Source: an uncultured Elusimicrobia bacterium
GTDB lineage: Bacteria > Elusimicrobiota > Elusimicrobia > 2-01-FULL-59-12
DNA: 64,000 nt
Assembly (NCBI GenBank): GCA_964506645.1
Contig: CAZDML010000001.1
Span: forward strand, 12,072-76,071
Direction: 5' to 3'
Below, one piece after another: positions 11,059 to 45,182 of the stretch. The stretch's first letter is position 1; the number at the start of each line of letters is the position of its first letter. The position numbers were made by a program, and so were the translations under genes. The notes under the pieces are model-generated. The model was not told the origin of the DNA, searched no databases, and saw only the letters and a program-made list of their open reading frames with translations.

Positions 11059-11067
11059 GAGACCTTT

Positions 11068-14000: not shown

Positions 14001-14220
14001 TCGTTTGAGGCCTGTGGCCATGACGGCGCTTGTCGCTAGCCTGGGGTTTGTGCCGATGGCGCTGAATACAGGTATCGGCGCCGAAGTCCAGCGGCCGCTC
14101 GCAACGGTCGTGATCGGAGGATTGATCACCTCGACTTTGCTGACGCTGGTCGTCCTTCCGGTGGTTTATCCGTGGCTCGGAAAGAAGTGGAAAGAGGAAG
14201 AAGAGGAGGTCGAGTTATGA
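11068..14220 (+). CDS. heavy-metal efflux RND inner-membrane pump (CzcA/CusA family)
   Basis: 1050 aa, 12-TM RND architecture. N-terminal MNRLMQWTLKNRLTVILFFALASGLGFY...AIDAVPEITPVQVMV aligns with CusA/CzcA. Confidence 0.9.
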   Translation: MNRLMQWTLKNRLTVILFFALASGLGFYSMGHLAIDAVPEITPVQVMVNTKTGALDPEQIEKTVTFPIETDMSGIAHVKEVRSLSKYGLSQVIVIFMDGTDIYWARQQISERLQGIRGEIPDGLTPTLAPISTGLSEIVMYTLLPKKGTDLAAKPEKDRLLYLRTLQDFVVAPYLKRSVKNVAEVDTTGGFKKEIHIEIHPERLDDYGLSMEQVAERLEGLGENVGGGYIQPKGRQIIVRASGRLMNLDEIRNLPVKLDVGGRAVPLSRIADVRDDYTPRMGGATVDGEEAVLGTVLMLSGANSREVSLDAEAALKEAPLPEDVEIQLLYTRSFLVNATLKTVSKSLLEGAALVIVVLLLILGNVRAALLVSLAIPLSMLFGAIGMKWFGLSASLMSLGAIDFGLLVDGAVVMIENSLRRLEEHRGALTKEAKLALILDAAQEVVKPVTLGLAIIMLVYVPILSLEGIEGKLYHPMAMTVIMALGASLLVAVLLMPVVAYLYLKAPSSGHVQETRFFLLLKKVYTPVLDWGLRHRALTVTPTVLLFIGALWVFHRMGADFMPPLDEGDLVVNLTRASDIGVDASLAMQRTSDRILAEFPEVERVFSRIGTPESATDPMGVHLSDTFVMLKKDRSAWPVAPDGKKRTKADLYEAMKKALEEKTPEQEVNENQPIEMRFSEILEGSRADVTLRIYGKDLDTLIGLLNQSIDVLKEIPGVDEVEMDALTALRKSPVLTARPNYAAIARYGLDIHRVTRLLEVAMGGKEVGSFYEEQWRFPIVMRVEEEHRENIDTIKSLPVGLPDGGTIPLKDVVDFKLQDEVTTIAHDYSQRYAAIAIFLKGRDISSFVKDAREAIDAKLKVPDGYRISWGGQFKNLERAKRRLALIVPVILIAIFLILWKAFGVMRQAVLVFTTIPLAMTGGIFALALRDIPMSVSASVGFIALMGIAILNGMVLVTFFNQLRQKGMDATQSAREGALVRLRPVAMTALVASLGFVPMALNTGIGAEVQRPLATVVIGGLITSTLLTLVVLPVVYPWLGKKWKEEEEEVEL

Positions 14221-14546
14221 AAGAGATCAAAGCGATCATTCAGCCCCAAGTGCTGGATCAGGTATTAGAGGCCCTCCACGCCGTGCCCGGCATCCCCGGC
14301 TGCACGGTATCCCGTGTTGAAGGCTATGCGCGGAGTTCCAACAAGGAAGGAGATGGACGTATGGCCACGTCAGCCGAGCGAGTGAAACTTGAGTTGGTCG
14401 TTCCAGATAAAATGGTCGAGAAAATAGTTGGGCTGATTCATGTCAATGCCAAAACGGGACACAAAGGAGACGGCAAGATTTTCATCATCGAAACAAAAGA
14501 TGCGCTGGCCATTCGCACCGGTGAGCGAGGCGAAAAGGCACTATAG
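14217..14546 (+). CDS. PII-like protein of the PII-NG group (GlnB fold, no T-loop Tyr)
   Basis: MKEIKAIIQPQVLDQVLEAL...GDGKIFIIETKDALAIRTGERG matches the PII fold. ATGA overlap with the RND stop. Confidence 0.75.
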   Translation: MKEIKAIIQPQVLDQVLEALHAVPGIPGCTVSRVEGYARSSNKEGDGRMATSAERVKLELVVPDKMVEKIVGLIHVNAKTGHKGDGKIFIIETKDALAIRTGERGEKAL

Positions 14547-14587
14547 AGCTTCTGGAAACGTGCCTCAGAAAAGGAGAGTTCTCGTTA

Positions 14588-31842: not shown

Positions 31843-31899
31843 CAAATTAATCGCTTGCGGTTGGTGAAAGAGCGTCGATATGGTTAAATTCTGCTATTG

Positions 31900-31958
31900 A
31901 TGGCGATGGGGTTCGCCGAAACCGCCGGGAAGCCCTTTCCGGCTGATAACTCCTACCA
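31900..31958 (+). ncRNA. fluoride riboswitch (crcB RNA motif), cis-regulatory leader of crcB
   Basis: tGGCGATGGGGTTCGCCgaaACCGCCgggaagccctttccGGCTGATAACTCCTAC matches the conserved fluoride aptamer (GGCGAUGG.GUUCGCC...ACCGCC...CUGAUGAnUCCUAC). Downstream GGTAGGAG (the SD) can pair with CTCCTACC. Confidence 0.85.
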
Positions 31959-31979
31959 ATCCACCATGGTAGGAGACTT

Positions 31980-32354
31980 ATGTCCAATTACATGCATCTT
32001 GCAGTCGGAACTCTCGCCGGCGGATTTTGCCGCTACTGGTTGGCGGGAGCTGTCTACAGCCTTTTTGGAGTCCAGTTTCCTCACGGAACGCTGGCCGTGA
32101 ACCTGTCCGGCTGTTTTGCTGTCGGACTATTGAACGCTTTAGCTGAGGCAAAGTTGCTTCTTGGTCCGGAAGCCCGCATTCTTCTTATGACCGGCTTCTG
32201 CGGGGCCTTCACGACGTTCTCCGCGTTTATGCTCGAGACCTCGAATCTCATCAAAGACGGAGAAGCGATCCGGGCATCGGTGAACGTCGCTGGAAGTTTG
32301 ATCGGCGGTTTTATCCTCTTCCGGCTCGGCGAGTGGTTGGCAGGTTCAATTTAG
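31980..32354 (+). CDS. crcB: fluoride ion channel CrcB/Fluc
   Basis: 124 aa, four TM helices. GFCGAFTTFSAF and N-terminal GGFCRYW motifs. Directly downstream of the fluoride riboswitch. Confidence 0.9.
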   Translation: MSNYMHLAVGTLAGGFCRYWLAGAVYSLFGVQFPHGTLAVNLSGCFAVGLLNALAEAKLLLGPEARILLMTGFCGAFTTFSAFMLETSNLIKDGEAIRASVNVAGSLIGGFILFRLGEWLAGSI

Positions 32355-32362
32355 AGCGAGGC

Positions 32363-32965
32363 ATGACTATGCGAAATCCAATGGAAAAATCAGACCCACA
32401 TCGAACTATTCAGGTCGTAGCTCTCCTGAACTTAGCCTACTTCGGTGTCGAGTTTGCAGTCGCAAAGGCTATCGGGTCGGTTTCTCTTTTTGCCGACAGC
32501 ATTGATTTTTTGGAAGACGCCTCGGTGAACTTCCTCATTCTGCTGGCTTTGGGGTGGAGCGTGAGTCGGCGGGCGAAAGTCGGCATGCTCTTGGCGGGCA
32601 TTCTTCTGGTTCCAGGTCTATCCGCTTTATGGACTGCATGGCAGAAATTCAATAATCCTATGGCGCCAGAGGCGATCAGTCTTTCGGTAACGGGCATGGG
32701 AGCTCTGCTCGTAAACTTCACCTGTGCACTCCTGCTTTCCCGGCACAGGCATCACGGCGGAAGCCTGATGCGCGCCGCGTTTCTTTCGGCCCGAAACGAC
32801 GTCTGGGCGAATGTTGCCATCATTGGGGCGGGACTCGTAACGGCAGCGACCTTATCCGCCTGGCCGGACCTGCTTGTGGGACTTGGGATCGCGATCATGA
32901 ATGCGGGCGCCGCAAAGGAAGTATGGCAGGCCGCTCGTGATGAGCATCGCGCAGCTGCTGTTTAA
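32363..32965 (+). CDS. cation-efflux (CDF-type) transmembrane-domain-only protein
   Basis: Six-TM cation_efflux-like domain (FADSIDFLEDASVNFLILLA...) with no C-terminal cytoplasmic domain. Starts 9 nt after crcB. Confidence 0.55.
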   Translation: MTMRNPMEKSDPHRTIQVVALLNLAYFGVEFAVAKAIGSVSLFADSIDFLEDASVNFLILLALGWSVSRRAKVGMLLAGILLVPGLSALWTAWQKFNNPMAPEAISLSVTGMGALLVNFTCALLLSRHRHHGGSLMRAAFLSARNDVWANVAIIGAGLVTAATLSAWPDLLVGLGIAIMNAGAAKEVWQAARDEHRAAAV

Positions 32966-32999
32966 TCTGAGTCCCAGAATCGGAGAAAGGAAACACTCT

Positions 33000-33227
33000 A
33001 TGACGCCAACCGACGAGATGGCAAGGCTAAGAACCGAGCTTGCCAATGAAAGGACATTGTTAGCCTATGTTCGCACGGGGCTGGCTGTCGTTGCGGCGGG
33101 GGTATCATTAATCGCCTTTTTTGATTTGCTCGCACCACGAATTGTTGGATGGGCGCTCTCCACTGCGGGTATAGCGACGTTCCTCATTGGCGTGGTGCGA
33201 TTCAAAAGTATACGCCGACGCCTGTAA
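33000..33227 (+). CDS. DUF202/YidH-like small membrane protein
   Basis: ELANERTLLAYVRTGLAVVAAGVSL motif characteristic of DUF202. Two TM helices. Confidence 0.55.
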   Translation: MTPTDEMARLRTELANERTLLAYVRTGLAVVAAGVSLIAFFDLLAPRIVGWALSTAGIATFLIGVVRFKSIRRRL

Positions 33228-33228
33228 C

Positions 33229-34113
33229 TTAAAAATTAGGATGCGCGGATTGAAGTGCCTCTCGGATTTCTTCGGGTGCGATGCGCGTATAAATTTGTGT
33301 GGTGGCAATCTGGCGATGCCCTAAATTCTCCTGAATGGTGCGGAGACCTACTCCTCGGGCGGTCAGAATCGCGCCAAAAGCGTGACGAATACCGTGTGGA
33401 TGGACCCTTCCTACAATCCCGGCTTCTTTCGCCAGCTTTCTCAATTGCCACCAAAACGCGCCGCGACTCCAAGGACAACCGTTTGAAGTGAGGAAAATAT
33501 GGTGCGCATTGTTAGGGAATCTCTGATTGCGCACTTTAAGGTAAGAAGCAAGAGCCGTCTTGGTCTTTTCCCCAACGGGCACAATCCTATCGCGATCGTT
33601 CTTTGGGCGTCGGACACGAATCCATCCCTCTGTGAAGTTAATGTCGTCCAATTGTAAGCCGGTCAGCTCGCTGGCACGTAAGCCGGTGGCGAACGCGAGC
33701 TGGAGTGCAGCAACAAGGCGAATTCGGTGGAATTTGCAGCCGGTTGGGATGCTAAGTAAGTGCTCGATCTCTTCGAGGTTTAAAGGCTGTGGTAGACGAT
33801 GACTAAATTTTGGGAGTTTGAGATCGACAGGCCCTCCCACCGCACGGCCGCTGGCCACCAAGAACCGATGGAAAAGACGAATGGATACCGACGCTAGAAA
33901 GAGGGTGCTGGCCTTCAGTCCAGCCCGTTTCTTTTCTTCAAGGTAGGCAACGACGTCGTCACGCGTGGCGTTGAGAAGGTCGACGCTTCGCGTGTCCAGA
34001 AATCGCATATACCCCTGCAGCTGGTAGCGATATGTCGGCCAACACGCCAGTCCCCGCTCGATTTCAATGTGCTTGCGAAAGGCTTCGAGATGATCAGCGG
34101 GTGCGCTTGGCAT
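33229..34113 (-). CDS. tyrosine site-specific recombinase, XerC/XerD-like integrase
   Basis: 294 aa. Catalytic residues in the R...HxxR...Y arrangement (GLRASEL, HPHGIRHAFG, GHRQIATTQIYTRI). Confidence 0.85.
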   Translation of the reverse strand: MPSAPADHLEAFRKHIEIERGLACWPTYRYQLQGYMRFLDTRSVDLLNATRDDVVAYLEEKKRAGLKASTLFLASVSIRLFHRFLVASGRAVGGPVDLKLPKFSHRLPQPLNLEEIEHLLSIPTGCKFHRIRLVAALQLAFATGLRASELTGLQLDDINFTEGWIRVRRPKNDRDRIVPVGEKTKTALASYLKVRNQRFPNNAHHIFLTSNGCPWSRGAFWWQLRKLAKEAGIVGRVHPHGIRHAFGAILTARGVGLRTIQENLGHRQIATTQIYTRIAPEEIREALQSAHPNF

Positions 34114-34582
34114 GCTCGATCACGCGGATTCGCTTTTGAGTGTCCCGTTCCACGGAATATCCTTTTCGTTTGAATGACCATAGCCGTGCTCGGCAGTTGG
34201 CCTCGAGATCTTTGCCGTTAGCCTGGGGCCCAGCCTTCTTTTTGAGTTCGGCGGCGATCTCCTTGATCGTGTGGCCACCGGCGACCAAGAAAGGGTCAAT
34301 AATGGCGGCCAATGAACCGTCGCGGACTTTCTTCCCACTCTTGCCGTCCTTTTTGGCCTTGCCATTTGCTTTGAGCAGCAGTTTTGCGTCCCGATTGACT
34401 TTTTCTTCGGTATACGCCTGGAGCGGATAAGTCCGCTCAACCGTGTTTTCATTTCCGGTCGTTTCGGCGCGGAGAACTACTTTGTCACCATCGCGCCGCA
34501 CTACGACAACCGGAATTCCGGATTTCGTCAGGTATTTTTCGTTCAGCTTGGCTTCACTTGCGTTCATTCTTGCCCCTTTCAT
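34094..34582 (-). CDS. basic hypothetical protein co-oriented with and overlapping the integrase gene
   Basis: Lys-rich. No recognisable motif. 20-nt overlap with the integrase start. Start could be the ATG at 34582 or 34567. Confidence 0.4.
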   Translation of the reverse strand: MKGARMNASEAKLNEKYLTKSGIPVVVVRRDGDKVVLRAETTGNENTVERTYPLQAYTEEKVNRDAKLLLKANGKAKKDGKSGKKVRDGSLAAIIDPFLVAGGHTIKEIAAELKKKAGPQANGKDLEANCRARLWSFKRKGYSVERDTQKRIRVIEHAKRTR

Positions 34583-34840
34583 GATGTTTTGATCCCCTTG
34601 ATATTCGCCACGCCATATCACAGCCCCCGCAATCTTCAATCGGAAATAGCGCCACGTTGCACCGTTCGGCCTAATTCGGCCAACTCAGGCCAAGCGGCAG
34701 GACACAGGACTACCTTCTGAAGGGCGTTGCCAGCAAGCGATTTCTGACGAGCATGGGGAGGTGAAATGCGTCGTGAGGGACTTCGAAAATGGGAATTGCT
34801 AAAATGACTTCTGTTGCCGGCAAGCCTTTAGGAGTCGCTT

Positions 34841-35539
34841 ATCTGCGGACGTTATTCCATCGCGCTCGAACCTGTGGAGTTAGCCGAAGTCTTGGAATGT
34901 GCCCCTCCTGACTTCGCTTTCTCGCCACGCTTTAATGTCGCGCCATCACAAGCCGTTCCTGTCGTCATTAACGAAAACAATAAGCGACGTCTGTGTTTAA
35001 TGCACTGGGGTCTCGTGCCCAGTTGGGCCAAGGATCCATCCATCGGGAACAAGATGATCAACGCCCGCGCTGAGACGATAACGCAAAAGCCGAGTTTCCG
35101 TAGACCGTTTGAGCGCCAGCGTTGCCTTGTCCCTGTGGACGGTTTCTATGAATGGCAGAAAGTCGCGGGCGCGCGAGTCAAAATCCCCACGCGCATCGTA
35201 ATGAAGGATAGGTGCTTATTCGCACTTGCAGGGATCTGGGATATATGGAAAAAGCCAGATGGCGGTGAACTTCGTTCATTCGCGATCATCACGACCGCCG
35301 CCAACGATTTGATGAAGGCGATCCACGACCGAATGCCCGTGATTCTGGCGAAACAGGATTGGGATACATGGTTGGACCCGAAATGTATAGATATCCCCAA
35401 GCTAACGGGGCTTCTCAGGTCATACCCTTCCGATGAGATGGAAACCTATGAAGTCTCGACTGCCGTCAATTCGCCTCGCAATGATGTGCGGGAATGTTTT
35501 GTCTTGTTGACAAGTGGACGTCGCGAAATTTCAACTTAA
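34841..35539 (+). CDS. SOS-response-associated peptidase (SRAP/YedK, DUF159) whose conserved Cys2 codon is preceded by ATC rather than ATG
   Basis: In frame, GGAG plus 6 nt, then ATC-TGC-GGA-CGT (I-C-G-R), followed by YSIALEPVELAE...RFNVAPSQAVPVV. This is the SRAP N-terminus MCGRF...YN(V/I)APTQ. The only canonical start (GTG 34874) lies after the catalytic Cys. Confidence 0.6.
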   Translation: MCGRYSIALEPVELAEVLECAPPDFAFSPRFNVAPSQAVPVVINENNKRRLCLMHWGLVPSWAKDPSIGNKMINARAETITQKPSFRRPFERQRCLVPVDGFYEWQKVAGARVKIPTRIVMKDRCLFALAGIWDIWKKPDGGELRSFAIITTAANDLMKAIHDRMPVILAKQDWDTWLDPKCIDIPKLTGLLRSYPSDEMETYEVSTAVNSPRNDVRECFVLLTSGRREIST

Positions 35540-35596
35540 TTCACGATTGAGCAGAAAAGCCTTTATGAACAAATCAAAAAGCGGTATCGTTTCTCT

Positions 35597-36559
35597 ATGG
35601 CAACTTCGGAACAAATTAAATCGCTGATCCGCTCTCACTGGAGCGAGGATCAAGAGCAATTTTTCACAACCGCGTTACAGGTTGCTGCTCACGAAGCTGA
35701 GCGGGGACACGGGGCCTTGGCTCTCGAAATTAGGGGCATCATCGACCAAGCCCGTAATACAAAAGCTCCTCGCATGCTCACAGATGTTCTTCCAGAGCTC
35801 CAGGGCTTGGTCAACACAGAGGAATCCAAGACGCCGATTTCTGCTCTCGTTCTTCCCGATGCGCTTCTTAAGCGTATTCGCCGGATACTCCATGAGTATG
35901 TGCAGAGCCACAAACTGAAGCAGCATGCTTTAGCTCCTCGCAGCAAAATCTTGCTGACAGGCCCTCCGGGCACTGGGAAAACAATGACTGCTCGTGTTTT
36001 TGCGCACGAGTTGCACTTACCTTTGCATACCGTCCAGGTGGACCGGTTGGTGACGAAATACATGGGCGAAACAAGCGCCAAACTCCGACAGATATTCGAT
36101 CTCATTGGCCGCCAGAAGGGGGTTTATCTGTTTGATGAGTTCGATGCGATCGGCGGCGGCCGGTCACTGGATAACGACGTGGGGGAGATGCGCAGGGTGC
36201 TCAACGCTTTGCTGCAATTTATCGAACGAGACACTTTCGATAGCATGGTGGTGGCTGCTACCAATAGCCCAGAGCTTCTTGATCGCGCCTTGTTCCGGCG
36301 TTTTGACGACGTCTTGATTTATGCACTTCCTGAACAAAATGACCGTAGACGATTAATCGAAAACGCATTGACCAGCTTCCTGCCCGAAACCTTTGATTGG
36401 AAGGGCATAGTTTCAGCAAGCAAGGCGTTGAGTAGTGGAGAGATATACCAAGCATGCTGCGATTCACTGAAAGACGCTATTCTGCGCGATCAAACGTATG
36501 TTTCGTCGGAAAGCCTGAAGCTATCAATTAGCGAACGTCAGAATACCCATAGTCGTTAA
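35597..36559 (+). CDS. AAA+ ATPase (IetA-like)
   Basis: Walker A LLTGPPGTGKT. Walker B VYLFDEFD. Sensor and arginine finger region. 320 aa. Confidence 0.8.
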   Translation: MATSEQIKSLIRSHWSEDQEQFFTTALQVAAHEAERGHGALALEIRGIIDQARNTKAPRMLTDVLPELQGLVNTEESKTPISALVLPDALLKRIRRILHEYVQSHKLKQHALAPRSKILLTGPPGTGKTMTARVFAHELHLPLHTVQVDRLVTKYMGETSAKLRQIFDLIGRQKGVYLFDEFDAIGGGRSLDNDVGEMRRVLNALLQFIERDTFDSMVVAATNSPELLDRALFRRFDDVLIYALPEQNDRRRLIENALTSFLPETFDWKGIVSASKALSSGEIYQACCDSLKDAILRDQTYVSSESLKLSISERQNTHSR

Positions 36560-36565
36560 TCAGGT

Positions 36566-39055
36566 ATGGCTAGCGACCATTTCCGAAACATTTTTCTCAA
36601 GGAAAAGCACGAGTCTCAAAGATTTAAAAGTAATCGGTCCTTCAGCAAACCTCCACCACTTTCCCCCGTTGAGCGAATAAGCCATGCGAGAAAATTGATC
36701 GCTCAATTTGACGCCATCTGGGAGCAATCAAAAGCGAAGAAGGCTGTTTCGATAACGGGTCGTGACGGCATATACATCGAATTCATCAGTTTCCCCGGGT
36801 ACGAATTGAAAATTCAGAGCCTGGAAAATATTAAGAGTCGAATACGTCTGCTAAACGTCCGCACCATCGATAAAGACGGTAAGTCACAAACATTGGCTAC
36901 CGTATTCGTCCCTGCAGGCAAAGAGAAGCTTTTTCTAAAGACATTCCAAGACTATGCTACTAAAGAAAATTCGAAAACCGGTACTCCCAGACACAAATCT
37001 CTTGTTGAGAGTATTAATGATTTTCACATTGCTGCCCTCTCTGGCCTTTGGACTGACAAGAAGGTTTCTCCTCCAGGAGAGCATCCTGCTTGGGTAGAGG
37101 CCTGGTTGGCCACTGACAGTAAAAAACTTGTCGATGAATTTCGGGAAACGCTTAAAGAATTAAAAATTGTTGAACACGAAGATCGACCGGAGATTCACTT
37201 CCCTGAACGGACAGTGGTCTTAATTTTTGCCGACCAGAAACAATTATTGTTGCTGATCGAATCGACCGGTTTGTTGGCTGAACTGAGACCTGCCCAGGCA
37301 ACGGCAGCATTTGTGCTTAAACTCTCGAACCAAGTTCAGGCGACAGTTGCTCAATCGATTCTCAAGAGGGCCACTATTGCCAAGAATTCAAACGTTTCAG
37401 TGTGCATCCTTGATCATGGAGTCAATCGGGGACATCCGATGTTGTCTCCCGTTCTGCCGGACGATGATTTGCTTACAGTCAATGAGAAATGGGGAAGCAA
37501 TGACACCGACGGCCATGGAACCTTGATGGCTGGCACTGCCGCCTATGGCGATATCCTTAAGATTATGAATACCAGCGAGCCGATTCAGATTCCTCATGGG
37601 ATTGAATCAGCCAAGATTCTGCCGCCTGGGAAATCCCAAAACGAGAGAAATCTTTGGGGTCATATGACAAAGCAAGGAATTTCGAGGGCCGAGATTCATG
37701 CCCCTCTTAGGCAACGCATTGTTTGCATGGCGGTTACAGCAACTGAGACAAGCGATCGTGGGACTCCGTCATCCTGGTCCGGCGCCATCGATCAACTTGC
37801 AGCGGGTGTAGATGATGAAACGAAAAAGCGGCTTTTGCTAATCAGCGCGGGCAACGCAAGTGACAAGGAGTACGCAAACTATCCGGAGAGCAATAAAACC
37901 AGCGATGTCGAAGACCCGGGCCAAGCATGGAATGCGCTGACGGTTGGTGCCTACACAGAAAAGACGAAAATTGCTCAGTCTGACTGGAAGGATTATGCCC
38001 CATTGGCAAGTGCAGGTCAGCTATCGCCTTTCAGCACAACCTCTGTTGCTTGGGATCCGTCGAGGTGGCCGATTAAGCCAGAAATTGTATGTGAGGGCGG
38101 GAATGTTGCCCGAGGTCCAAATGGAGGGACGATCGAGGCCGATGAGCTCCAATTGATCTCCACATCTCACGATACAACCATTTCGCACTTTGCAAAGTTT
38201 AACGCGACAAGTGCCGCCACTGCGCTGGCGGCTCGAATGGCGGCAATCATACAAGCCGAATATCAGGAAGCCTGGCCGGAAACGATCCGTGGGCTGATGG
38301 TGCATTCTTCGCAGTGGACCGAGGCCATGGAAAAACAATTTAAGGGGGCCGACAATAAAACCTCGTACAAAACGCTCCTTAGAGCGTGCGGGTACGGAGT
38401 TCCTAACTTAGAACGAGCGATTTATTGTTTAAAAAACAGACTGACCCTTGTTAGTCAGGCTCAAATTCAACCATTCATTAAAGAAGGCAATGACTATCGC
38501 AGCAATGAGATGCACTTATATCCGCTGCCTTGGCCGAAAGATGTGCTCCGTTCACTTGGTGAAACCAAGGTGGAGATGCGAATTACGCTTTCATATTTTG
38601 TCGAGCCAGGCCCTGGGGAGATCGGATGGGAAAATCGATACAGATACGCTTCACACGGCCTTCGTTTTAAAATAAACGCTCCAGAAGAAAATAGACAGCA
38701 ATTTGTAGCGCGAATTAACCGTGAAGCACGCGAATCTGATGACGGACATCCGGGAACGGCATCGCCCAACGAGCATTGGGTTCTTGGGCAACAACAGCGT
38801 GATATAGGGTCTATACATTCAGATATTTGGAAAGGAAATGCGGTACAGCTGTCCGCATCAAATTTTATTGCAGTCCACCCAAGCATCGGATGGTGGCGCG
38901 AGCGTCGTAATTTGGAGTGTTGGAACAAGAAAAGCCGTTATTCTTTGATCGTGTCTATTCATTCGCCTCGAGAAGACGTTGATATCTATACGCCCGTGGC
39001 AACCCAAGTTGGGATCAAGACCCCCGTACCTGTTCCTGTGCTAATCGGGTGGTAG
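36566..39055 (+). CDS. S8-family subtilisin-like serine peptidase (IetS-like)
   Basis: D (VCILDHGV), H (DGHGTLMAGTAAYG) and S (NATSAATALAA) triad in S8 order. 829 aa with long N- and C-terminal extensions. No signal peptide. Confidence 0.8.
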   Translation: MASDHFRNIFLKEKHESQRFKSNRSFSKPPPLSPVERISHARKLIAQFDAIWEQSKAKKAVSITGRDGIYIEFISFPGYELKIQSLENIKSRIRLLNVRTIDKDGKSQTLATVFVPAGKEKLFLKTFQDYATKENSKTGTPRHKSLVESINDFHIAALSGLWTDKKVSPPGEHPAWVEAWLATDSKKLVDEFRETLKELKIVEHEDRPEIHFPERTVVLIFADQKQLLLLIESTGLLAELRPAQATAAFVLKLSNQVQATVAQSILKRATIAKNSNVSVCILDHGVNRGHPMLSPVLPDDDLLTVNEKWGSNDTDGHGTLMAGTAAYGDILKIMNTSEPIQIPHGIESAKILPPGKSQNERNLWGHMTKQGISRAEIHAPLRQRIVCMAVTATETSDRGTPSSWSGAIDQLAAGVDDETKKRLLLISAGNASDKEYANYPESNKTSDVEDPGQAWNALTVGAYTEKTKIAQSDWKDYAPLASAGQLSPFSTTSVAWDPSRWPIKPEIVCEGGNVARGPNGGTIEADELQLISTSHDTTISHFAKFNATSAATALAARMAAIIQAEYQEAWPETIRGLMVHSSQWTEAMEKQFKGADNKTSYKTLLRACGYGVPNLERAIYCLKNRLTLVSQAQIQPFIKEGNDYRSNEMHLYPLPWPKDVLRSLGETKVEMRITLSYFVEPGPGEIGWENRYRYASHGLRFKINAPEENRQQFVARINREARESDDGHPGTASPNEHWVLGQQQRDIGSIHSDIWKGNAVQLSASNFIAVHPSIGWWRERRNLECWNKKSRYSLIVSIHSPREDVDIYTPVATQVGIKTPVPVPVLIGW

Positions 39056-39079
39056 ATGCCCGAGTTAGATGGACACCTG

Positions 39080-39586
39080 TTAACGGTGCCGCGAAATGAC
39101 TGCTTTGGGACCACACATGAGCCCTTCAAACGCTTTAATCTGGTCGAAGGGATCACGTAGTCGGGATAGCCGGTTCCAATCACGGTCACTGATGACCGGG
39201 TTGTGGACAGTAGGTTCCAGGGCTCGGATGTAGGCTTGGATGCGGGGTGCGAGGTTCAGAAGGTTTAGAATCTGGCTGACGCGCGTGGGGTCGACCCTCA
39301 TGTGCTTGGCCAGGGCAAACCGGGTAAGGCCGGGCGTCGTGGCCAAGGTTTTTTGAAGGTCGTAAGCTTTGGCGAGAAGCGTTTGGATCGCTGGTGGCTT
39401 GGGAATCGGCTCTTTGGAGGCGCGGATGGTTTGGTGCAATTCAAAGGCTTTTCGGCGCACCAAGCGTACGCGGCCGCGGGATTCGAAAATTGGGCCGAAA
39501 TCAAATTTGTCCCATAAACACAACGCGTTCCGGGCATTCGGGGTACTTTGACGAGAGTCGGACGCGGGGAGTTCTTTCCTCACCAC
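39080..39586 (-). CDS. ParB-like HTH protein fragment (possible remnant/pseudogene)
   Basis: LTRFALAKHMRVDPTRVSQILNLLNLAPRIQAYI resembles the ParB HTH (..VANLLRLLKLPEEVQ). Lacks the N-terminal ParB/Srx domain. Only a GTG start, which abuts the divergent downstream gene. Confidence 0.3.
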   Translation of the reverse strand: MVRKELPASDSRQSTPNARNALCLWDKFDFGPIFESRGRVRLVRRKAFELHQTIRASKEPIPKPPAIQTLLAKAYDLQKTLATTPGLTRFALAKHMRVDPTRVSQILNLLNLAPRIQAYIRALEPTVHNPVISDRDWNRLSRLRDPFDQIKAFEGLMCGPKAVISRHR

Positions 39587-41419
39587 ATGATGAATCGCTC
39601 TCCTCTGGTAAAGAAACTGTCATTCCAATGGGGCTTACTCTTGTGTGTAGCGGCGGTGCTTTGGGCTGTGGTTTCTCCTCGTTTCCCAGTTGGACATTTT
39701 GAGGACGACGCCCGAGATATTCTGGCTGCGCAATCTCTCCTTCAGGGTCGTTACGCGAATCTGCAAAATCCCGCTCAACCCCTTTTAAACTTTCCTTTGC
39801 CTGGCTTTCCGCTCTTTTTATCCCCCTTTGTCTTCCTGGTTCAAGGGCGTTGGGAGTGGCTTAAAATTCTTCCCGGGGCACTCTCCCTCCTCATGCTTGT
39901 GATGATGTATCGTTTGGCACGTTCCGTGCTGACGCCAGAGCAAGCGATGCTCGCAACCGGTCTTATGGCCATCAATCCCTTGACGGTGTATCTTGCTTCA
40001 TGTGTTATTGTCTATTCGCTTTTTGGTGTTGTCCTCTTTGCCAGTTTTCTCAGGCTGCAACACTATTTGCGATCCCCAACTCAGAAGGCGCAGTGGCTCC
40101 TGGGATTCTGGCTGGCCATCGCCTGTTTAATTCGCCCCGAGGGAAAGATTCTTGGATTGGCGATTGGAGTGGCAGTGGCACGCGAGCGGCCTAAGAAAGA
40201 GCTTTGGCGCATACTGACACCGGCCATGGTGATTTTATTGGGATGGGGCGCTCGGAATTATTTTTTGACACAGGAAATATCTGGATATAGTGCGTATTGG
40301 ATTGAAAATGCACACACGCTTATCCGGGACCCTTTTTTTATGGTTTTAAATTTGGGCCGCGAAGCCCACACGTTTATGATGGAAACGTTTTGTGCGTTAT
40401 TGCCATCCTCTAGATTAGAAAAGATGGTCGGATGGATTCTCGCGCTGAGTGCGCTGGGTTTTGTGATGAAAGGTATACGTGAGTATCTTCCGGGGTGGAA
40501 GAAGGGACTGCCGCTGGCTGTGCTCATTTTTTGTGGGGTGTTTTATGGGATGCACGGTGTTTGGTTGGCACTGAGCCCGCATTATTTTTACTGGTTGTTG
40601 CCCTGGCTCTATCTGGCCTTGGTCAAGGGGATGGATCCCCGTTACACTTCGTTAAAAGCCCGCTGGTACGGACGGGGGGTCATCGTTTTTCTTTTGATGA
40701 TCTATGGCATTCAATATGGGCGTGCTATCCAGCAGACCTATGGGACCCCGCACCGGACATGGCTTACAGATGCTTTCCAAACGACCTTGCGGAAAGAAAG
40801 AACAGTCGGTTCCGTGTATGTGTTAGCTCCTTCGGCCGCCAATCTGACGCTTCAGACGGGAATGCCTTCACTTTCACGGATTCCTGCTCGTGATGTGGAC
40901 TTCTTTCGGTATCGATTGCATCGTGAGGGAATCACACATGTGATGATCGCGCCGGCTGAATATATGTATTTGCGGTCACGGCGTGGGGATGATCCGGAAG
41001 TGCTGTGGTCGCAAATCGCTGCTTGGATCCAGGAATTACCGTCGGATTTCATACCGATTTATGCCGATCCCAATGCCCCTGTTAAGCTCTATCGGGTTCG
41101 CGTCCCCCCCGTTTTTGTGAGGGCGTATGAAACGTATGAAAAAGCATTGGAAGCGCCACAGCTGGAGACAGTTTTGGACGGTTTAGAGGCGGCGCTCGCC
41201 ATCGATGATCAATTTCCTGAAGCGCTGAACGCCTACGGCGCCACCTGTTATTTATTAAATAGAAAGAATGCCCAAGCCGAAGCGCGACTGCGAGAGGCCG
41301 TTCGCCTGCGTCCAGGATACCGTTTGGCCTGGTTAAATCTCTCGCGCATTTTAGAGCGCAAAGGCGATAAACAAGGTGCGTCACATGCGCGTGCGCAGGC
41401 GCTCTCGAATCCCAAGTAG
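39587..41419 (+). CDS. GT-C fold membrane glycosyltransferase (PMT/ArnT-like, GT39/83) with C-terminal TPR repeats
   Basis: About 11 TM helices. First-loop acidic motif HFEDDARD. C-terminal TPR-like segment (ALNAYGATCYLLNRKNAQAEARLREAVRLRPGYRLAWLNLSRIL). Confidence 0.65.
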   Translation: MMNRSPLVKKLSFQWGLLLCVAAVLWAVVSPRFPVGHFEDDARDILAAQSLLQGRYANLQNPAQPLLNFPLPGFPLFLSPFVFLVQGRWEWLKILPGALSLLMLVMMYRLARSVLTPEQAMLATGLMAINPLTVYLASCVIVYSLFGVVLFASFLRLQHYLRSPTQKAQWLLGFWLAIACLIRPEGKILGLAIGVAVARERPKKELWRILTPAMVILLGWGARNYFLTQEISGYSAYWIENAHTLIRDPFFMVLNLGREAHTFMMETFCALLPSSRLEKMVGWILALSALGFVMKGIREYLPGWKKGLPLAVLIFCGVFYGMHGVWLALSPHYFYWLLPWLYLALVKGMDPRYTSLKARWYGRGVIVFLLMIYGIQYGRAIQQTYGTPHRTWLTDAFQTTLRKERTVGSVYVLAPSAANLTLQTGMPSLSRIPARDVDFFRYRLHREGITHVMIAPAEYMYLRSRRGDDPEVLWSQIAAWIQELPSDFIPIYADPNAPVKLYRVRVPPVFVRAYETYEKALEAPQLETVLDGLEAALAIDDQFPEALNAYGATCYLLNRKNAQAEARLREAVRLRPGYRLAWLNLSRILERKGDKQGASHARAQALSNPK

Positions 41420-41438
41420 AGTAAAATGAGTAAACTCC

Positions 41439-42164
41439 ATGATCTTCATTATCCTCCCCGCCTTTAATGAAGCCAAAGCACTGCAAGCACTGATCCCTGC
41501 CATCGGACAGGAACTGGCCGCGCAGCCGTACAAAATCGTCCTTGTGGATGACGGGTCGTCCGATGCCACACCTCAGGTCGCAGCCGAACTTTCAAAAAAA
41601 CAACCCATCGAAGTCCTGCGTCACCAACCGAACCAGGGATACGGCGCAGCCATCCGCACAGGAGCGCTCTGGGTGATCAAAAATGGCAAGCCGGAAGACG
41701 TTGCGCTGACCCTTGATGCCGACAATACGCATCTGCCAACCTTCTTTCCGGTGCTTACCCGGAAGTTGGGAGAGGGATTTGATGTGGTTACCGCTTCTGT
41801 GTCGCTCCCAGGTGGCCGACTGGAAGGGGTCCCTCCTCTACGGCGACTGATGAGCGCCGTGGTGAACCGGTTGTTCGGTTCAGTCTGTGCGATCCCCGGC
41901 ATCAGCACGTACACCAACGGCTTCCGTGCCTTCCGCGTACGCGCTTTACAGCGTGCTCATGCCAAATATGGCGATCGTTTGATGGAAGATACGGGTTTTC
42001 CAGGAGGGGTCGAGCTCTTTTTGAAGGTGATCAAAGCTGGGGGGCGTCCCGCCGAGGCCCCTTTTACGCTTTATTACCAGAACCGGGGGGGGGATAGTAA
42101 GATTCGCTTCATCCAAACCATCCGGCGCTACCTCCTCCTCCTCTCCCGTTTTCGCCAATTTTAG
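41439..42164 (+). CDS. GT2 polyprenyl-phosphate glycosyltransferase (Dpm1/Ppm1-like)
   Basis: MIFIILPAFNE...VLVDDGSSD...D.D GT-A motifs. 241 aa. Confidence 0.7.
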   Translation: MIFIILPAFNEAKALQALIPAIGQELAAQPYKIVLVDDGSSDATPQVAAELSKKQPIEVLRHQPNQGYGAAIRTGALWVIKNGKPEDVALTLDADNTHLPTFFPVLTRKLGEGFDVVTASVSLPGGRLEGVPPLRRLMSAVVNRLFGSVCAIPGISTYTNGFRAFRVRALQRAHAKYGDRLMEDTGFPGGVELFLKVIKAGGRPAEAPFTLYYQNRGGDSKIRFIQTIRRYLLLLSRFRQF

Positions 42165-42243
42165 GGTTGCGGATCCCCCCTCCGATCGAATACAATAGTG
42201 GCCTAGATTTCGACCTGAACCTGCCTTTTCCATTCAAATACTC

Positions 42244-42885
42244 ATGAAGCGGTTTGGTCTCACAGTCGAGGTGTTAGGGTTGTTCGGCACCTTGATTTTT
42301 TATGTATCGCCGGCGATGGCGGAAATGCCTGAGATCTCAGGCAGCAGCGCCTCGTCCGCCGTCTCGGCCGTTGCCTCCGATAGCGCAACGGTCGTTGAAC
42401 CTTTTCTGTGGCCATTGTCCCCGATGATTGGGGGAAAAAAGACGATGGTGTTGTCCGGTTTTGGAAAGCGCCAAGTGCCACAAAACCTCTGGCCACTACC
42501 GACAGCCAAAGGCCCCGTCTTTACCGGGGTGGAAGATCATAAAGCAGTCGATTTTATCGCCGCCGAAAGCGCAGTCGTACGGGCGTCCCGGGCAGGAAAA
42601 GTTCTTTTTATTGGGTTTTCCAAAGAGTACGTGAGTCGTAAGGATAAAAATGATAAGTGGCGGGCGGTGATTATCCGTCACGCCGATGGCATGAGCACGC
42701 GGTACGTGCACTTAAATGCGGTGCACGTAGCGCCCGGTCAACAGGTCACTGCAGGGCAGGTGATTGGACGTGTGGCATCGTCCGATGAATGGACCGACCC
42801 GGTGTTTCATTTTGAGATTCGAGATGCAAAGGGAGTGGCGCTAAATCCTATGGATCTTTTACAAGTCGAAGGAGCACATCCGTAA
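42244..42885 (+). CDS. M23-family peptidase domain protein, possibly degenerate active site
   Basis: HKAVDF (HxxxD) is present, but the HxH motif reads FHFE. Signal peptide. Confidence 0.65.
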   Translation: MKRFGLTVEVLGLFGTLIFYVSPAMAEMPEISGSSASSAVSAVASDSATVVEPFLWPLSPMIGGKKTMVLSGFGKRQVPQNLWPLPTAKGPVFTGVEDHKAVDFIAAESAVVRASRAGKVLFIGFSKEYVSRKDKNDKWRAVIIRHADGMSTRYVHLNAVHVAPGQQVTAGQVIGRVASSDEWTDPVFHFEIRDAKGVALNPMDLLQVEGAHP

Positions 42886-44238
42886 ATGGCCAAGCGTCCC
42901 ATTTCGGTTTTGATTTTAGCGGCAGGCGCAGGAACGCGCATGAAGTCGGCCACGCCGAAAGTGCTGCACAAGGTGGTTGGCCGTCGTTTAATTGAACATG
43001 TCATTGCGGCTGTTCAAGCGCTTAAGCCCGCCCGCACTGGGGTCGTGATTGGCGTGGAGCGCGAAAAAGTAAAAGCCGCGCTCATCGCTTCCGGTCTTAA
43101 ACTTGATTTTATTGTGCAGGATCAGCCCAAAGGCAGCGGTCATGCCGTGATCAAAGCCAAAAGCTGGTTGACGCGAAAGAAAGGCACGCTACTGGTTGTC
43201 TACGGAGATACACCGCTGCTGACCGCGGCCACGCTGCAGAACTTGATCCGGGCGCATCAGAGCGCGGGACATGCAGCGACGTTTCTGGCGATGGATGTGG
43301 CCAACCCGTCCGGGTATGGCCGGATGGTGGTGGACGGCCAAGGGCTTCTGGAGAGGATCGTCGAGCATCGCGATGCCAGTCCTGAAGAGCTGAACATTTC
43401 GCTGGTCAATTCCGGAGTGGCCTGCTGGGACATTGCGTCGCTTCTGCACGTGCTGCCAAAGTTGAAACCCAACAATGCGAAGCACGAATACTATTTGACG
43501 GATTGTGTCGCGCTTCTGCGCGCACGCGGACAACAGGTCGGCGTCATGACGGTGGCCGACGAGTCAGAAACCTGGGGCGTTAACAACCGCATCGATCTGG
43601 CGCAAGCCGAAGCCGTATGGCGCAAACGGATCCTGGAGCATTGGATGCGTGAAGGTGTGACGATGGCCGACCCGGCTACGACCTATATCGATTTGAATTC
43701 CCGGTTGGCGCCGGATGTCCGGCTGGGCCCGGGCGTGATCATTGAAAAATCCATTTTGGAACCCGGCTGTGATATTTTCGCCTATTCGATTTTAGAAGGG
43801 GCGGTCGTGAAAACGGGCGCCAAGATCGGTCCCTGCGCGCGGCTGCGGCCGGGAGCGGTGATCGAGACGGATGCGCACATCGGTAATTTTGTCGAAGTGA
43901 AGAAAAGCCGGATCGGCCGCGGCAGCAAAGCCAACCACCTGACGTATATTGGGGATTCGGTGATCGGTCAGGGCGTGAACGTCGGTGCCGGAACCATTAC
44001 CTGCAACTACGACGGCTATACCAAGTCGCAAACGATTATTGAGGACGGTGTATTTGTCGGTTCCAATACGAATTTAGTCGCACCGGTGCGCGTGAAGAAG
44101 CGCGCCATTATCGGTGCCGGGTCGACCATCACGAAAGATGTGGAAGCGGGATCGCTGGCGGTGGCGCGGTCTCCGCAAGTGCTGCGCAAGGGCTGGGCCG
44201 ATGCGTGGCGCAAGAACAAAAGCCGCCGGAAGAACTAA
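42886..44238 (+). CDS. glmU: bifunctional UDP-N-acetylglucosamine pyrophosphorylase / glucosamine-1-phosphate N-acetyltransferase
   Basis: N-terminal [12 protein letters not shown]-terminal left-handed beta-helix hexapeptide repeats. 450 aa. Confidence 0.9.
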
Positions 44239-44249
44239 GAGGAACGTTC

Positions 44250-45182
44250 ATGACTGCGTTAAAAGTATTTTCGGGCAATGCCAACCGCGGACTTGCGGAA
44301 GAAATTTGCCAGGCGCTGAATGTGCCGCTGGGAAAAGCCGATGTGGGCCACTTCTCGGACGGTGAGCTTCAAGTTCGAATTTTAGAAAACGTCCGCGGCC
44401 ATGATACGTTTATCGTGCAGCCGACATGTCCGCCGGTCAACGACCATTTGATGGAATTGCTCATCATGGTTGATGCGCTGGCACGTGCTTCCGCCCGGCG
44501 TATTACCGCTGTAATCCCGTATTATGGCTACGGCCGCCAGGATCGCAAAGCGGAGCCACGTGTACCCATCTCGGCCAAACTGGTTGCCAATTTGGTGACA
44601 GCCGCCGGCTGCGACCGCGTGCTCGCGATGGATTTGCATGTCGGACAGATTCAGGGTTTCTTTGATATTCCAGTGGACCACTTGTATGCGATGCCGGTGT
44701 TCCTCGAATACATACGGCAGAAGAATTTGAAAGACGTGGTCATTGTTTCACCGGATGCCGGCGGCGTGGAGCGCGCCCGCGCCTTTGCCAAACGGCTCGA
44801 TGCGGATCTGGCGATTGTCGACAAACGCCGCCCGCGCGCCAACGTGGCGGACGTGATGAACGTGATTGGTGAAGTCGAAGGCAAAACAGCTATTTTGTTG
44901 GATGACATGGTAGATACGGCAGGCACACTCTGCAAGGATGCGGAAGCGCTCAAGAGGTTCGGCGCCAAACGGATTTTTGCAGCCACATCTCACGGTGTGC
45001 TGTCCGGCCCGGCCATGGAACGGCTCGAGCAGTCGCCGATTGAAGAGCTGATGATCAGCAATTCCATCCCGCTCAACGGGAAGAAGTCGTCAAAGGTTAG
45101 GGTCTTATCGGTGGCGCCGCTGCTCGCGGAAGCGATCAAGCGAATCCACGAAGACCAGTCGGTCAGTCAATTGTTCGTTTAA
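44250..45182 (+). CDS. prs: ribose-phosphate pyrophosphokinase
   Basis: [20 protein letters not shown]..., PRPP-binding loop DDMVDTAGT. Confidence 0.9.

What the first reader, a model, noticed from the sequence alone, without database searches (positions are those of the whole stretch)
33229..39586. Integrase-associated islet carrying an AAA-ATPase plus S8-subtilase pair resembling the IetAS anti-phage system
Between a XerC/D-like tyrosine recombinase and a truncated ParB-like HTH lie, co-oriented, an SRAP gene, a 320-aa AAA+ ATPase and an 829-aa cytoplasmic S8 protease (no signal peptide, long extensions). The last two are separated by 6 nt. ATPase plus subtilase two-gene cassettes of this kind have been reported as the IetAS defence family. 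Here it is embedded between a metal island and housekeeping genes, consistent with a small defence or mobile insertion.
Basis: partly seen in the sequence, partly recalled or inferred. Interest (0 to 1): 0.7.

Follow-up and report, generated by a model that had tools for sequence, protein, structure and literature searches.

The report
IetAS toxin–antitoxin/defence pair at recombination hotspot
The two genes are a genuine, intact member of the known IetA/IetS family (an ATPase that restrains a toxic intracellular protease, used for phage defence and for stabilising mobile DNA), so the finding is real but is a new member of a known kind.

Summary
All the ORFs exist as described, and the AAA+ gene (35597-36559) and S8 gene (36566-39055) are 6 nt apart. 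The pair belongs to the IetAS family. PADLOC gives IetA 1.5e-69 and IetS 1.1e-32. Against the founding pTiC58 pair, IetA is 48% and IetS 38% identical, end to end. All catalytic motifs are invariant and dN/dS is 0.02 and 0.08. IetA lies directly upstream of IetS in 76 of 76 genomic loci from many phyla. In 13-14 of 80 loci the pair sits inside a type I R-M operon, and homologs also occur on viral contigs and plasmids. It is not an equivalog of the anti-phage pair modelled by NCBIfam, because both scores fall far below the cut-offs.

The "integrase-bounded islet" is only partly right. I found no border repeats and no tRNA. SRAP and the tyrosine recombinase are only local neighbours. The "ParB-like" ORF is the C-terminal tail of a large serine recombinase that is intact in one relative. 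All three close relatives lose homology at the same nucleotide (39571). A more distant relative has a tail at the same chromosomal site but no IetAS.

Verdict: new member of a known kind, in accessory cargo. The recombinase-tail junction is an unexplained side lead.

The parts
35597..36559 (+). ietA: 320-aa single-cassette classical AAA+ ATPase, the predicted antitoxin or regulator
   Evidence: PADLOC IetA 1.5e-69 over residues 1-317. Pfam AAA 4.4e-30. 48% identical over the full length to pTiC58 IetA. dN/dS 0.023. phrog_3757 7e-87.
35960..35983 (+). IetA Walker A, GPPGTGKT (aa 122-129)
   Evidence: G122, P124, G125, G127, K128 and T129 are at least 97% conserved in 74 IetA sequences.
36053..36073 (+). 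IetA pore-loop-1-like motif, T-K-Y-M-G-E-T (aa 153-159)
   Evidence: T153, K154, M156, G157, E158 and T159 are at least 97% conserved. The resemblance to the aromatic-hydrophobic-Gly pore loops of classical AAA+ unfoldases is from general knowledge of that clade.
36128..36145 (+). IetA Walker B, LFDEFD (aa 178-183). Sensor-1 N223 and arginines R234/R235 lie further on.
   Evidence: F179, D180, E181, F182, D183, N223, R234 and R235 are at least 97% conserved.
36566..39055 (+). ietS: 829-aa cytoplasmic S8 subtilase, the predicted toxin or effector
   Evidence: PADLOC IetS 1.1e-32 over residues 187-815. Pfam Peptidase_S8 8e-62. 38% identical over 811 aa to pTiC58 IetS. D283, H317, N430 and S549 are invariant in 121 sequences. 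dN/dS 0.08. No signal peptide or membrane segment.
36566..36661 (+). IetS N-terminal tail (aa 1-32), predicted disordered
   Evidence: pLDDT below 50 for residues 1-32 in the 121-sequence AlphaFold model.
37088..37291 (+). IetS prodomain-like beta-alpha-beta-beta-alpha-beta module (aa 175-242), directly before the catalytic domain
37388..38398 (+). IetS S8 catalytic domain (aa 275-611)
38447..38965 (+). IetS conserved C-terminal beta-rich domain (aa 628-800)
   Evidence: Many invariant residues, including R672, S676-F678, W688, R691, Y692, H751, S752, D753, W776 and W777. Conserved in pTiC58 IetS. Beta strands in the model.
34841..35539 (+). SRAP (SOS-response-associated peptidase) gene. It is a co-oriented neighbour and not part of the IetAS system. 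Probable ATC start.
   Evidence: Pfam SRAP 3.7e-73. The sequence reads stop 34829-31, AGGAG, 6 nt, ATC-TGC-GGA-CGT, and this is conserved in L001 and L005. SRAP is found next to IetS in only 1 of 80 genomic and 1 of 52 viral loci.
33229..34113 (-). XerC/D-like tyrosine recombinase, a variable neighbour
   Evidence: Phage_integrase plus SAM_1. XerD equivalog score 219.5 against a cut-off of 329.6. phrog_1 integrase 3e-41. 70% aa identity to L001's copy and 38% to L005's.
34094..34567 (-). Gene of unknown function, probably 157 aa (the ORF extends to 34639). It overlaps the recombinase start by 20 nt.
   Evidence: No Pfam, NCBIfam, PADLOC or PHROG hit. Called as 157 aa in L001. 90% aa identity to L001 and dN/dS 0.07.
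39080..39586 (-). C-terminal tail (ParB-HTH-like) of a large serine recombinase, without the catalytic core
   Evidence: 81-84% identical to aa 533-702 of L001's intact 702-aa LSR. P0129 shows that an LSR with this tail is a real architecture. There is no LSR core anywhere in the window. dN/dS 0.16-0.31.
39557..39573 (-). Junction motif AACTCCCCGCGTCCGAC at the tail start. This is the point where the window, L001 and L005 all lose homology.
   Evidence: Searches show the same-nucleotide break. The motif is shared by five tail starts. There is a single copy in the window.

Best explanation
Window 35597-39055 encodes an intact two-gene IetAS module.

IetS is a cytoplasmic subtilase. From N to C terminus it has a disordered tail, an extra N-domain, an uncleaved prodomain-like module, the S8 catalytic domain and a conserved C-terminal beta domain. 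IetA is a single-ring classical AAA+ ATPase, probably translationally coupled to IetS through the 6-nt gap.

By homology with pTiC58 IetAS and SGI1 SgiAT, IetS is a toxin whose proteolysis arrests or kills the cell, and IetA neutralises it in an ATP-dependent manner. When a phage product or loss of the module removes IetA's hold, IetS is unleashed. The result is abortive infection, or post-segregational killing.

My mechanistic inference, which is not shown: IetA has a conserved pore-loop-like motif, and IetS has a disordered N-terminus plus a prodomain-like module. This suggests IetA holds IetS off by engaging or threading it, in effect keeping a zymogen inactive.

The module is accessory cargo in a mosaic, recombinase-rich region next to a recurrent recombination junction (39571). 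It is not a core gene.
For: Shown here:
- IetA and IetS profile matches.
- Full-length homology to the founding pair, 48% and 38%, with the same lengths (328 and 836 aa) and a 3-nt gap there. This is the same divergence range as the validated SgiAT, 50% and 36% (PMC5006074).
- Catalytic residues D283, H317, N430 and S549, and the Walker A/B, sensor-1 and Arg motifs, are invariant.
- Strong purifying selection.
- IetA lies directly upstream, on the same strand, in 76 of 76 genomic loci and about 47 of 48 viral loci.
- In 13-14 of 80 loci the pair lies between hsdM-hsdS and hsdR.
- Homologs occur on 489 plasmids, 52 IMG/VR contigs and in PHROG families.
- About 50% identity is spread across many phyla.
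- Only three close copies exist, each in a different context. L144 lacks the pair at the same chromosomal site.
- The structure model and fold matches point to pro-subtilases.

From the literature:
- Protease as toxin and ATPase as antitoxin; the protease is needed for defence; ietA mutants cannot be constructed; the anti-phage mechanism remains unknown (PMC13069673).
- Abortive infection triggered by an SPbeta protein (bioRxiv 10.1101/2022.08.27.505566).
Against: - No experiment exists on this pair or on any close relative.
- NCBIfam IteA and IteS equivalog cut-offs are missed by a wide margin (204 against 510, and 68 against 900 bits). The anti-phage evidence therefore comes from a different subfamily.
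- No PADLOC IetS model covers residues 1-186.
- No promoter or terminator could be assigned.
- No other defence gene was identified next to the pair in this window. Only the six islet ORFs were scanned against PADLOC.
Confidence: 0.78

Rival explanations
1. The pair acts mainly as an addiction (post-segregational killing) module that stabilises the surrounding mosaic island, rather than as a phage defence. This does not exclude the best explanation.
For: The two closest experimentally studied relatives were characterised in exactly this role: pTiC58 IetAS and SGI1 SgiAT. The window pair is 48% and 38% identical to the former. It lies among recombinase genes and remnants in a region that is rearranged between relatives. 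Of the 489 plasmid hits, 341 are on conjugative plasmids.
Against: The subfamily is embedded in type I R-M operons in 13-14 of 80 loci, and homologs are carried on viral contigs. Both point to defence. Family members do protect against phage. There is no evidence that the island here can still excise: no att repeats and no recombinase core.
Confidence: 0.3
2. The pair is a housekeeping regulated-proteolysis machine, an AAA+ unfoldase feeding a partner protease, inherited vertically.
For: IetA resembles Cdc48, PAN and FtsH ATPase cassettes and has a conserved pore-loop-like motif. Both genes are under strong purifying selection.
Against: Only three close copies exist among 15 billion proteins, and each sits in a different neighbourhood. 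L144 lacks the pair at the syntenic site. Identity of about 50% scattered over unrelated phyla, plasmids and viral contigs indicates horizontal spread. Characterised homologs are toxic when unbalanced.
Confidence: 0.03
3. The cassette is a decaying, non-functional remnant of a dead mobile element.
For: The adjacent serine recombinase has lost its catalytic core. There are no att repeats. No promoter was recognised.
Against: Both ORFs are full length with every catalytic residue intact. dN/dS is 0.02 and 0.08, against 0.16-0.31 for the recombinase tail. The 6-nt spacing is preserved in L001 and L005.
Confidence: 0.04

Closest known systems
IetA/IetS of Agrobacterium plasmid pTiC58 (Yamamoto et al. 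2009, J Bacteriol 191:4656, cited in PMC5006074 and PMC13069673); locus NC_003065.3 97873-101373
   Same: Same gene order (ATPase then protease), near-zero spacing and similar sizes (328 and 836 aa against 320 and 829 aa). Homology runs end to end, including the IetS N- and C-terminal extensions (48% and 38% identity). The same catalytic motifs are present.
   Different: The pTiC58 pair is plasmid-borne in an alphaproteobacterium and was characterised as a plasmid stability/incompatibility toxin-antitoxin. The window pair is chromosomal (on an 80-kb contig) in a probable Elusimicrobia MAG and is untested.
SgiAT (S026/S025) of Salmonella Genomic Island 1 (PMC5006074)
   Same: An ATPase antitoxin and subtilase toxin pair carried on an integrative island. 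Its divergence from pTiC58 IetAS (50% and 36%) is like that of the window pair.
   Different: I made no direct sequence comparison, because SGI1 is not in the searched collections. SGI1 is a defined, mobilisable element with known att sites, unlike the region here.
Anti-phage IetAS of Gao et al. 2020 and the B. cereus m1293 homolog (NCBIfam NF042959/NF042956; PADLOC IetA/IetS models)
   Same: The same two-gene architecture and domain families. PADLOC models hit both proteins.
   Different: The window proteins score far below the NCBIfam equivalog cut-offs. The roughly 747-749-position IteS/IetS models align only to residues 184-677, so the N- and C-terminal parts of the window protein are not covered. 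This is a different subfamily.
ietHAS (Liu-DS4), IetAS with an SNF2 helicase (PMC13069673)
   Same: An IetA plus IetS core, with the protease required for defence.
   Different: There is no helicase gene next to the window pair. In the loci with a type I R-M system, the SWI2/SNF2-type HsdR lies downstream, but as part of the R-M operon.
Unprocessed pro-subtilases (ProN-Tk-SP 3afg, pro-subtilisin E 3whi, CspB 4i0w)
   Same: These are the best structural matches to the IetS model. Each has a prodomain followed by an S8 domain, with or without a C-terminal beta domain.
   Different: Identity is at most 22%. These are secreted or germination proteases with no AAA+ partner. IetS has about 170 additional N-terminal residues of unknown fold.

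Membership tests
IetAS (toxin-antitoxin / Gao_Iet defence family) | Two adjacent, co-oriented genes, the AAA+ ATPase first and the S8 protease second | tested here: met
   35597-36559(+) and 36566-39055(+), with a 6-nt gap. The same order holds in 76 of 76 homologous genomic loci.
IetAS (toxin-antitoxin / Gao_Iet defence family) | IetA: a single-cassette AAA+ homologous to pTiC58 IetA, with intact Walker A and B | tested here: met
   48% identity over the full length, E 2e-103. PADLOC IetA 1.5e-69. Motifs at least 97% conserved.
IetAS (toxin-antitoxin / Gao_Iet defence family) | IetS: a roughly 750-850-aa intracellular subtilase homologous to pTiC58 IetS, with an Asp/His/Ser triad | tested here: met
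   38% identity over 811 aa, E 2e-163. PADLOC IetS 1.1e-32. D283, H317 and S549 invariant. No signal peptide.
IetAS (toxin-antitoxin / Gao_Iet defence family) | Equivalog of the anti-phage pair modelled by NCBIfam (IteA NF042959, IteS NF042956) | tested here: not met
   204.4 bits against a cut-off of 510, and 68 bits against 900. The pair is homologous but belongs to a different subfamily.
IetAS (toxin-antitoxin / Gao_Iet defence family) | IetS is toxic and IetA neutralises it | not testable with these tools
   Known for pTiC58 IetAS, SgiAT and ietHAS. It needs expression experiments for this pair.
IetAS (toxin-antitoxin / Gao_Iet defence family) | Protection against phage (abortive infection) | not testable with these tools
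   Shown for other members. Here there is only contextual support: R-M embedding and viral contigs.
Integrase-bounded genomic islet | Direct repeats (att) at the borders, or insertion next to a tRNA/tmRNA gene | tested here: not met
   No tRNA in the window. Only chance-level short repeats in 32000-41000. A single copy of the junction motif.
Integrase-bounded genomic islet | A recombinase that travels with the cargo | tested here: inconclusive
   A tyrosine recombinase occupies the same position in L001 (70% aa) and L005 (38% aa, separated from SRAP by an ars cassette). It is found near IetS in only 4 of 80 genomic loci.
Integrase-bounded genomic islet | Presence or absence polymorphism among related genomes | tested here: inconclusive
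   No empty site was found. Searches with the flanking gene returned nothing close. The block sits in three different contexts. L144 shares Prs, GlmU and M23 synteny and has a recombinase tail, but no IetAS.
Large serine recombinase (for ORF 39080-39586) | N-terminal resolvase catalytic domain, recombinase domain and zinc ribbon | tested here: not met
   Only aa 533-702 of the L001 protein are represented. There is no core anywhere in the window. The ORF is a tail, not a recombinase.
ParB (for ORF 39080-39586) | ParB N-terminal (CTPase) domain and an HTH above the Pfam threshold | tested here: not met
   HTH_ParB scores 16.8 bits against a cut-off of 22.6, and there is no ParB N-domain.

The most novel reading that the evidence does not exclude
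The right border of the IetAS block may be a site-specific junction that lies inside a large-serine-recombinase gene, at the linker codons K-x-L-P-x-S-D/N between the recombinase core and a ParB-HTH-like tail. Conflict-system cargo (IetAS here; Fic, a TOTE primase-helicase and RhuM elsewhere) would then be stacked in same-strand [tail-cargo] modules at a chromosomal hotspot. That would be a serine-recombinase analogue of cassette accretion, in which recombination swaps or removes the recombinase's own C-terminal domain.
Probability: 0.2. Interest if true: 0.7.

Novelty: new member of a known kind. Interest (0 to 1): 0.35.

Why it matters
- It places a bona fide pTiC58-type IetAS module in a barely studied lineage, probably Elusimicrobia.
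- It shows that this subfamily of roughly 825-aa IetS proteins with an obligate IetA partner is very widespread in environmental bacteria, plasmids and prophages, and is often nested inside type I R-M operons.
[quoted passage not shown] Three features seen here give concrete hypotheses for how an AAA+ ATPase restrains a protease toxin: the conserved pore-loop-like motif in IetA, the disordered N-terminus of IetS, and its prodomain-like module.
- The recurrent breakpoint in the neighbouring serine-recombinase gene is a separate lead on how such cargo is shuffled.

Tried and rejected
- Border repeats and tRNA targets: none found.
- Empty-site test using the right-flank glycosyltransferase: nothing in genome contigs or metagenome contigs. 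In the protein database there was only the window's own sequence plus homologs of at most 32% identity. The exact-match contig look-ups failed.
- Promoter and terminator scan: fewer promoter hits than in shuffled sequence, and terminator hits at chance level, so it was uninformative.
- First IetS structure model (25 sequences): pLDDT 61.5, so I discarded it in favour of the 121-sequence model.
- I first read the 168-aa ORF as a simple deletion remnant of an LSR. The representative search then showed mostly short homologs, which suggested a standalone gene family. Inspecting those sequences showed that many are themselves tails starting at the same LPxS(D/N) point. The question is left open.
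- SRAP as a third component of the system: rejected. It is linked to IetS only in the three close relatives.
- A conserved third gene next to the pair: clustering of neighbours found only type I R-M genes.
- A second junction motif that would delimit an element in the window: none found.
- Sequence search of the PDB with IetS: no hit at E of 0.001 or better.
Full report
**1. What is in the sequence**

The ORF list confirms, between 33229 and 39586:
- a 294-aa tyrosine recombinase (minus strand);
- an overlapping upstream ORF on the same strand (181 aa as listed, 157 aa as called in relative L001);
- an SRAP gene, a 320-aa AAA+ gene and an 829-aa S8 gene, all on the plus strand;
- a convergent 168-aa ORF on the minus strand.

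Pfam supports each identification: Phage_integrase 4e-38, SRAP 3.7e-73, AAA 4.4e-30, Peptidase_S8 8e-62, and only a sub-threshold HTH_ParB hit for the last ORF. The IetA stop and the IetS start are 6 nt apart. IetS has no hydrophobic N-terminus or membrane segment.

The window's left part encodes a heavy-metal P-type ATPase, two RND/OEP efflux sets, a histidine kinase, envelope enzymes, CrcB and a CDF. The right part encodes GT, GT2, M23, GlmU and Prs.

**2. Family assignment**

The ATPase matches PADLOC IetA models over its full length (1.5e-69). The protease matches five IetS models, the best at 1.1e-32 over residues 187-815. None of the other four ORFs matches any defence model.

A stronger test is direct comparison with the founding locus. 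A protein search of the plasmid collection found pTiC58 (NC_003065.3). There a 328-aa ATP-binding protein is followed 3 nt later by an 836-aa S8 peptidase. The window IetA is 48% identical to that ATPase over its whole length. The window IetS is 38% identical over 811 residues, including both the N-terminal and C-terminal extensions.

That divergence is the same as for SgiAT of Salmonella Genomic Island 1 (50% and 36% to pTiC58 IetA and IetS), which is a functional toxin-antitoxin pair (PMC5006074).

The NCBIfam equivalog models for the anti-phage pair (IteA, IteS) are hit, but far below their cut-offs: 204 against 510 bits and 68 against 900 bits. The window pair therefore belongs to the pTiC58-like subfamily, not to the one modelled from the anti-phage pair.

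**3. Is it functional?**

In 121 IetS homologs, D283, H317, the oxyanion residue N430 and S549 are invariant. So are dozens of residues in the non-catalytic N- and C-terminal regions.

In 74 IetA sequences the following are at least 97% conserved:
- Walker A (G122-T129);
- Walker B (F179-D183);
- sensor-1 N223;
- R234 and R235;
- a T-K-x-M-G-E-T motif at 153-159, which resembles pore loop 1 of classical AAA+ unfoldases.

Against the two close relatives, dN/dS is 0.023 for IetA and about 0.08 for IetS. The genes are under strong purifying selection.

**4. Distribution and linkage**

More than 4,800 homologs of IetS were found. The top 120 are all about 820-840 aa long and about 50% identical, from unrelated phyla.

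In a sample of 80 genomic loci, from taxa as different as Elusimicrobia, Desulfobacterales, Verrucomicrobiota, Synechococcus, Sorangium and Clostridia, IetA lies immediately upstream on the same strand in all 76 loci that include upstream sequence.

Clustering of the neighbouring ORFs found no conserved third gene. It did show that in 13-14 loci the pair lies between hsdM-hsdS and hsdR of a type I restriction-modification system. That position is typical of defence genes.

Homologs also occur on 489 plasmids, mostly conjugative, and on 52 IMG/VR viral contigs. In about 47 of the 48 viral loci with enough upstream sequence, IetA is adjacent. Both proteins also match full-length PHROG families.

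This patchy spread across mobile elements rules out a housekeeping role.

**5. Structure**

With a 121-sequence alignment, AlphaFold gives a usable IetS model (pLDDT 78.4, pTM 0.73). It has:
- a disordered tail (residues 1-32);
- an alpha/beta N-domain;
- a beta-alpha-beta-beta-alpha-beta unit at about 175-242;
- the S8 domain;
- a beta-rich C-terminal domain.

No IetS-like structure exists in the PDB, either by sequence or by fold (at most 22% identity). IetA resembles Cdc48, AFG2, NVL and PAN cassettes.

**6. Mechanism**

Established for relatives:
- The protease is the toxin and the ATPase is the antitoxin.
- Protease activity is needed for defence.
- ietA mutants cannot be constructed.
- The anti-phage mechanism remains unknown (PMC13069673).
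- The B. cereus system acts by abortive infection and is triggered by a phage SPbeta protein.

For the window pair I infer the same logic. The motifs and the model suggest one further step, which is not shown: IetA keeps IetS inactive by engaging or threading it. The candidate handles are the disordered N-terminus and the prodomain-like module. Loss or inhibition of IetA would then release an active protease.

**7. The 'islet'**

Only three copies of this IetS exist at 90% identity or more among about 15 billion proteins: the window's own 80-kb NCBI contig, L001 (a Logan contig) and L005 (a MAG labelled uncultured Elusimicrobia).

DNA comparison shows that the shared block is SRAP-IetA-IetS-168-aa ORF (34830-39571), at 84-86% identity. 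The neighbours differ:
- The tyrosine recombinase is 70% identical in L001 and 38% in L005 (amino acids).
- L005 has an ars cassette between the recombinase and SRAP.
- The left flanks differ: CrcB-CDF in the window and L005, and a different CDF plus a methyltransferase in L001.
- The right flanks differ in all three.

There is no tRNA and there are no att-like repeats. The region is a mosaic, not a discrete integrase-bounded insertion.

**8. The 168-aa ORF and the right border**

In L001 the homologous sequence forms residues 533-702 of an intact 702-aa large serine recombinase, with resolvase, recombinase and zinc-ribbon domains. P0129 (743 aa) is a 47% full-length homolog that includes this tail, so the architecture is real. 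The window has no recombinase core anywhere.

All three relatives lose homology at the same nucleotide (39571 = L001 13006 = L005 11006).

L005 carries three same-strand tails, each starting at recombinase residue 527-530, with cargo genes between them. The five tail starts share the motif AAACGCTCCCCGGGTC.

A search of 1.8 billion representative proteins found 216 homologs, nearly all short. On inspection, several are tails that begin exactly at the same LPxS(D/N) point. P0131 relative to P0129 is one example.

In JGI metagenomes, four of nine tail-bearing loci have two same-strand tails, and none has a nearby core. The adjacent cargo includes Fic, a TOTE primase-helicase and RhuM.

L144 shares the window's Prs-GlmU-M23 synteny (85%, 61% and 42% aa identity). 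At the same place it has a 5'-shortened tail followed by RhuM, and no IetAS. This is the nearest I could get to the presence/absence test, and it supports IetAS being accessory cargo at a hotspot.

I cannot decide whether the junction is a true recombination site. The window holds only one copy of the motif.

**9. Side observation**

The SRAP reading frame has a stop at 34829-31, then AGGAG, then 6 nt, then ATC-TGC-GGA-CGT. The canonical (M)CGRY N-terminus with the catalytic Cys2 is obtained only if ATC 34841 is the start codon. L001 and L005 have the same arrangement.

**10. Verdict**

The pair is a new, intact member of a known family, of the pTiC58/SgiAT-like subfamily, carried as accessory cargo. 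Its specific function here (defence or addiction) and the ATPase-protease mechanism remain untested. The recombinase-tail junction is the most unusual feature, and it is only partly explored.

Noticed in passing
window 34829-34874: The SRAP gene appears to use a non-canonical ATC start codon (34841). The sequence reads TAG stop, AGGAG, 6 nt, ATC-TGC-GGA-CGT, which gives the canonical (M)CGRY N-terminus with the catalytic Cys2. No ATG, GTG or TTG is available between the stop and the Cys codon. The same arrangement is found in L001 and L005.
   Followed up: partly
window 39557-39573; L001 ~13006; L005 ~11006, ~12981, ~14553: Three relatives lose homology at the same nucleotide, inside a large-serine-recombinase gene, at the linker before its ParB-HTH-like tail. 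Five tail starts share the motif AAACGCTCCCCGGGTC, encoding K-x-L-P-G-S-D. Many short metagenomic homologs start at the same LPxS(D/N) point.
   Followed up: partly
L005 10503-14562; L138, L139, L140, L141: Same-strand tandem copies of the recombinase tail, 0.7-3.6 kb apart, with cargo genes between them and no recombinase core nearby. The cargo includes Fic/DOC, a TOTE-system primase-helicase, RhuM and unknown genes. This looks like stacked [tail-cargo] modules.
   Followed up: partly
L144 5101-11337 compared with window 39080-45182: A more distant relative (Prs 85%, GlmU 61% and M23 42% aa identity) has, at the same chromosomal place, a 5'-shortened recombinase tail followed by a RhuM gene and no IetAS. 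This suggests a conserved insertion hotspot upstream of the membrane glycosyltransferase-like gene.
   Followed up: partly
L006 3622-13907 and about 13 other loci among L005-L084: The IetA-IetS pair is inserted between hsdM-hsdS and hsdR of type I restriction-modification operons in 13-14 of 80 sampled genomes.
   Followed up: yes
window 34094-34639 (-): A small gene of unknown function (probably 157 aa) overlaps the tyrosine recombinase start. It has no hit in Pfam, NCBIfam, PADLOC or PHROGs, yet it is 90% identical in L001 with dN/dS 0.07. It may be an accessory DNA-binding factor of the recombinase.
   Followed up: no
window 10867-14553 compared with L001 3-3689; window 31859-32953 compared with L005 1133-2232; L005 3829-6215: Metal and ion resistance genes are shuffled between relatives. 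The RND/P-II block lies 19 kb from the IetAS block in the window but only 3 kb away in L001. L005 carries an extra ArsR-ArsC-DUF6428-CDF cassette between the recombinase and SRAP.
   Followed up: partly
window 33229-39571 compared with L001 and L005: Divergence is mosaic within the shared block. Against L005, IetA has dS 0.49 (98% aa identity) while the adjacent SRAP has dS 1.5 (69% aa). Against L001, IetS has dS 0.34 and IetA 0.72. This suggests recent recombinational exchange of parts of the cassette.
   Followed up: no
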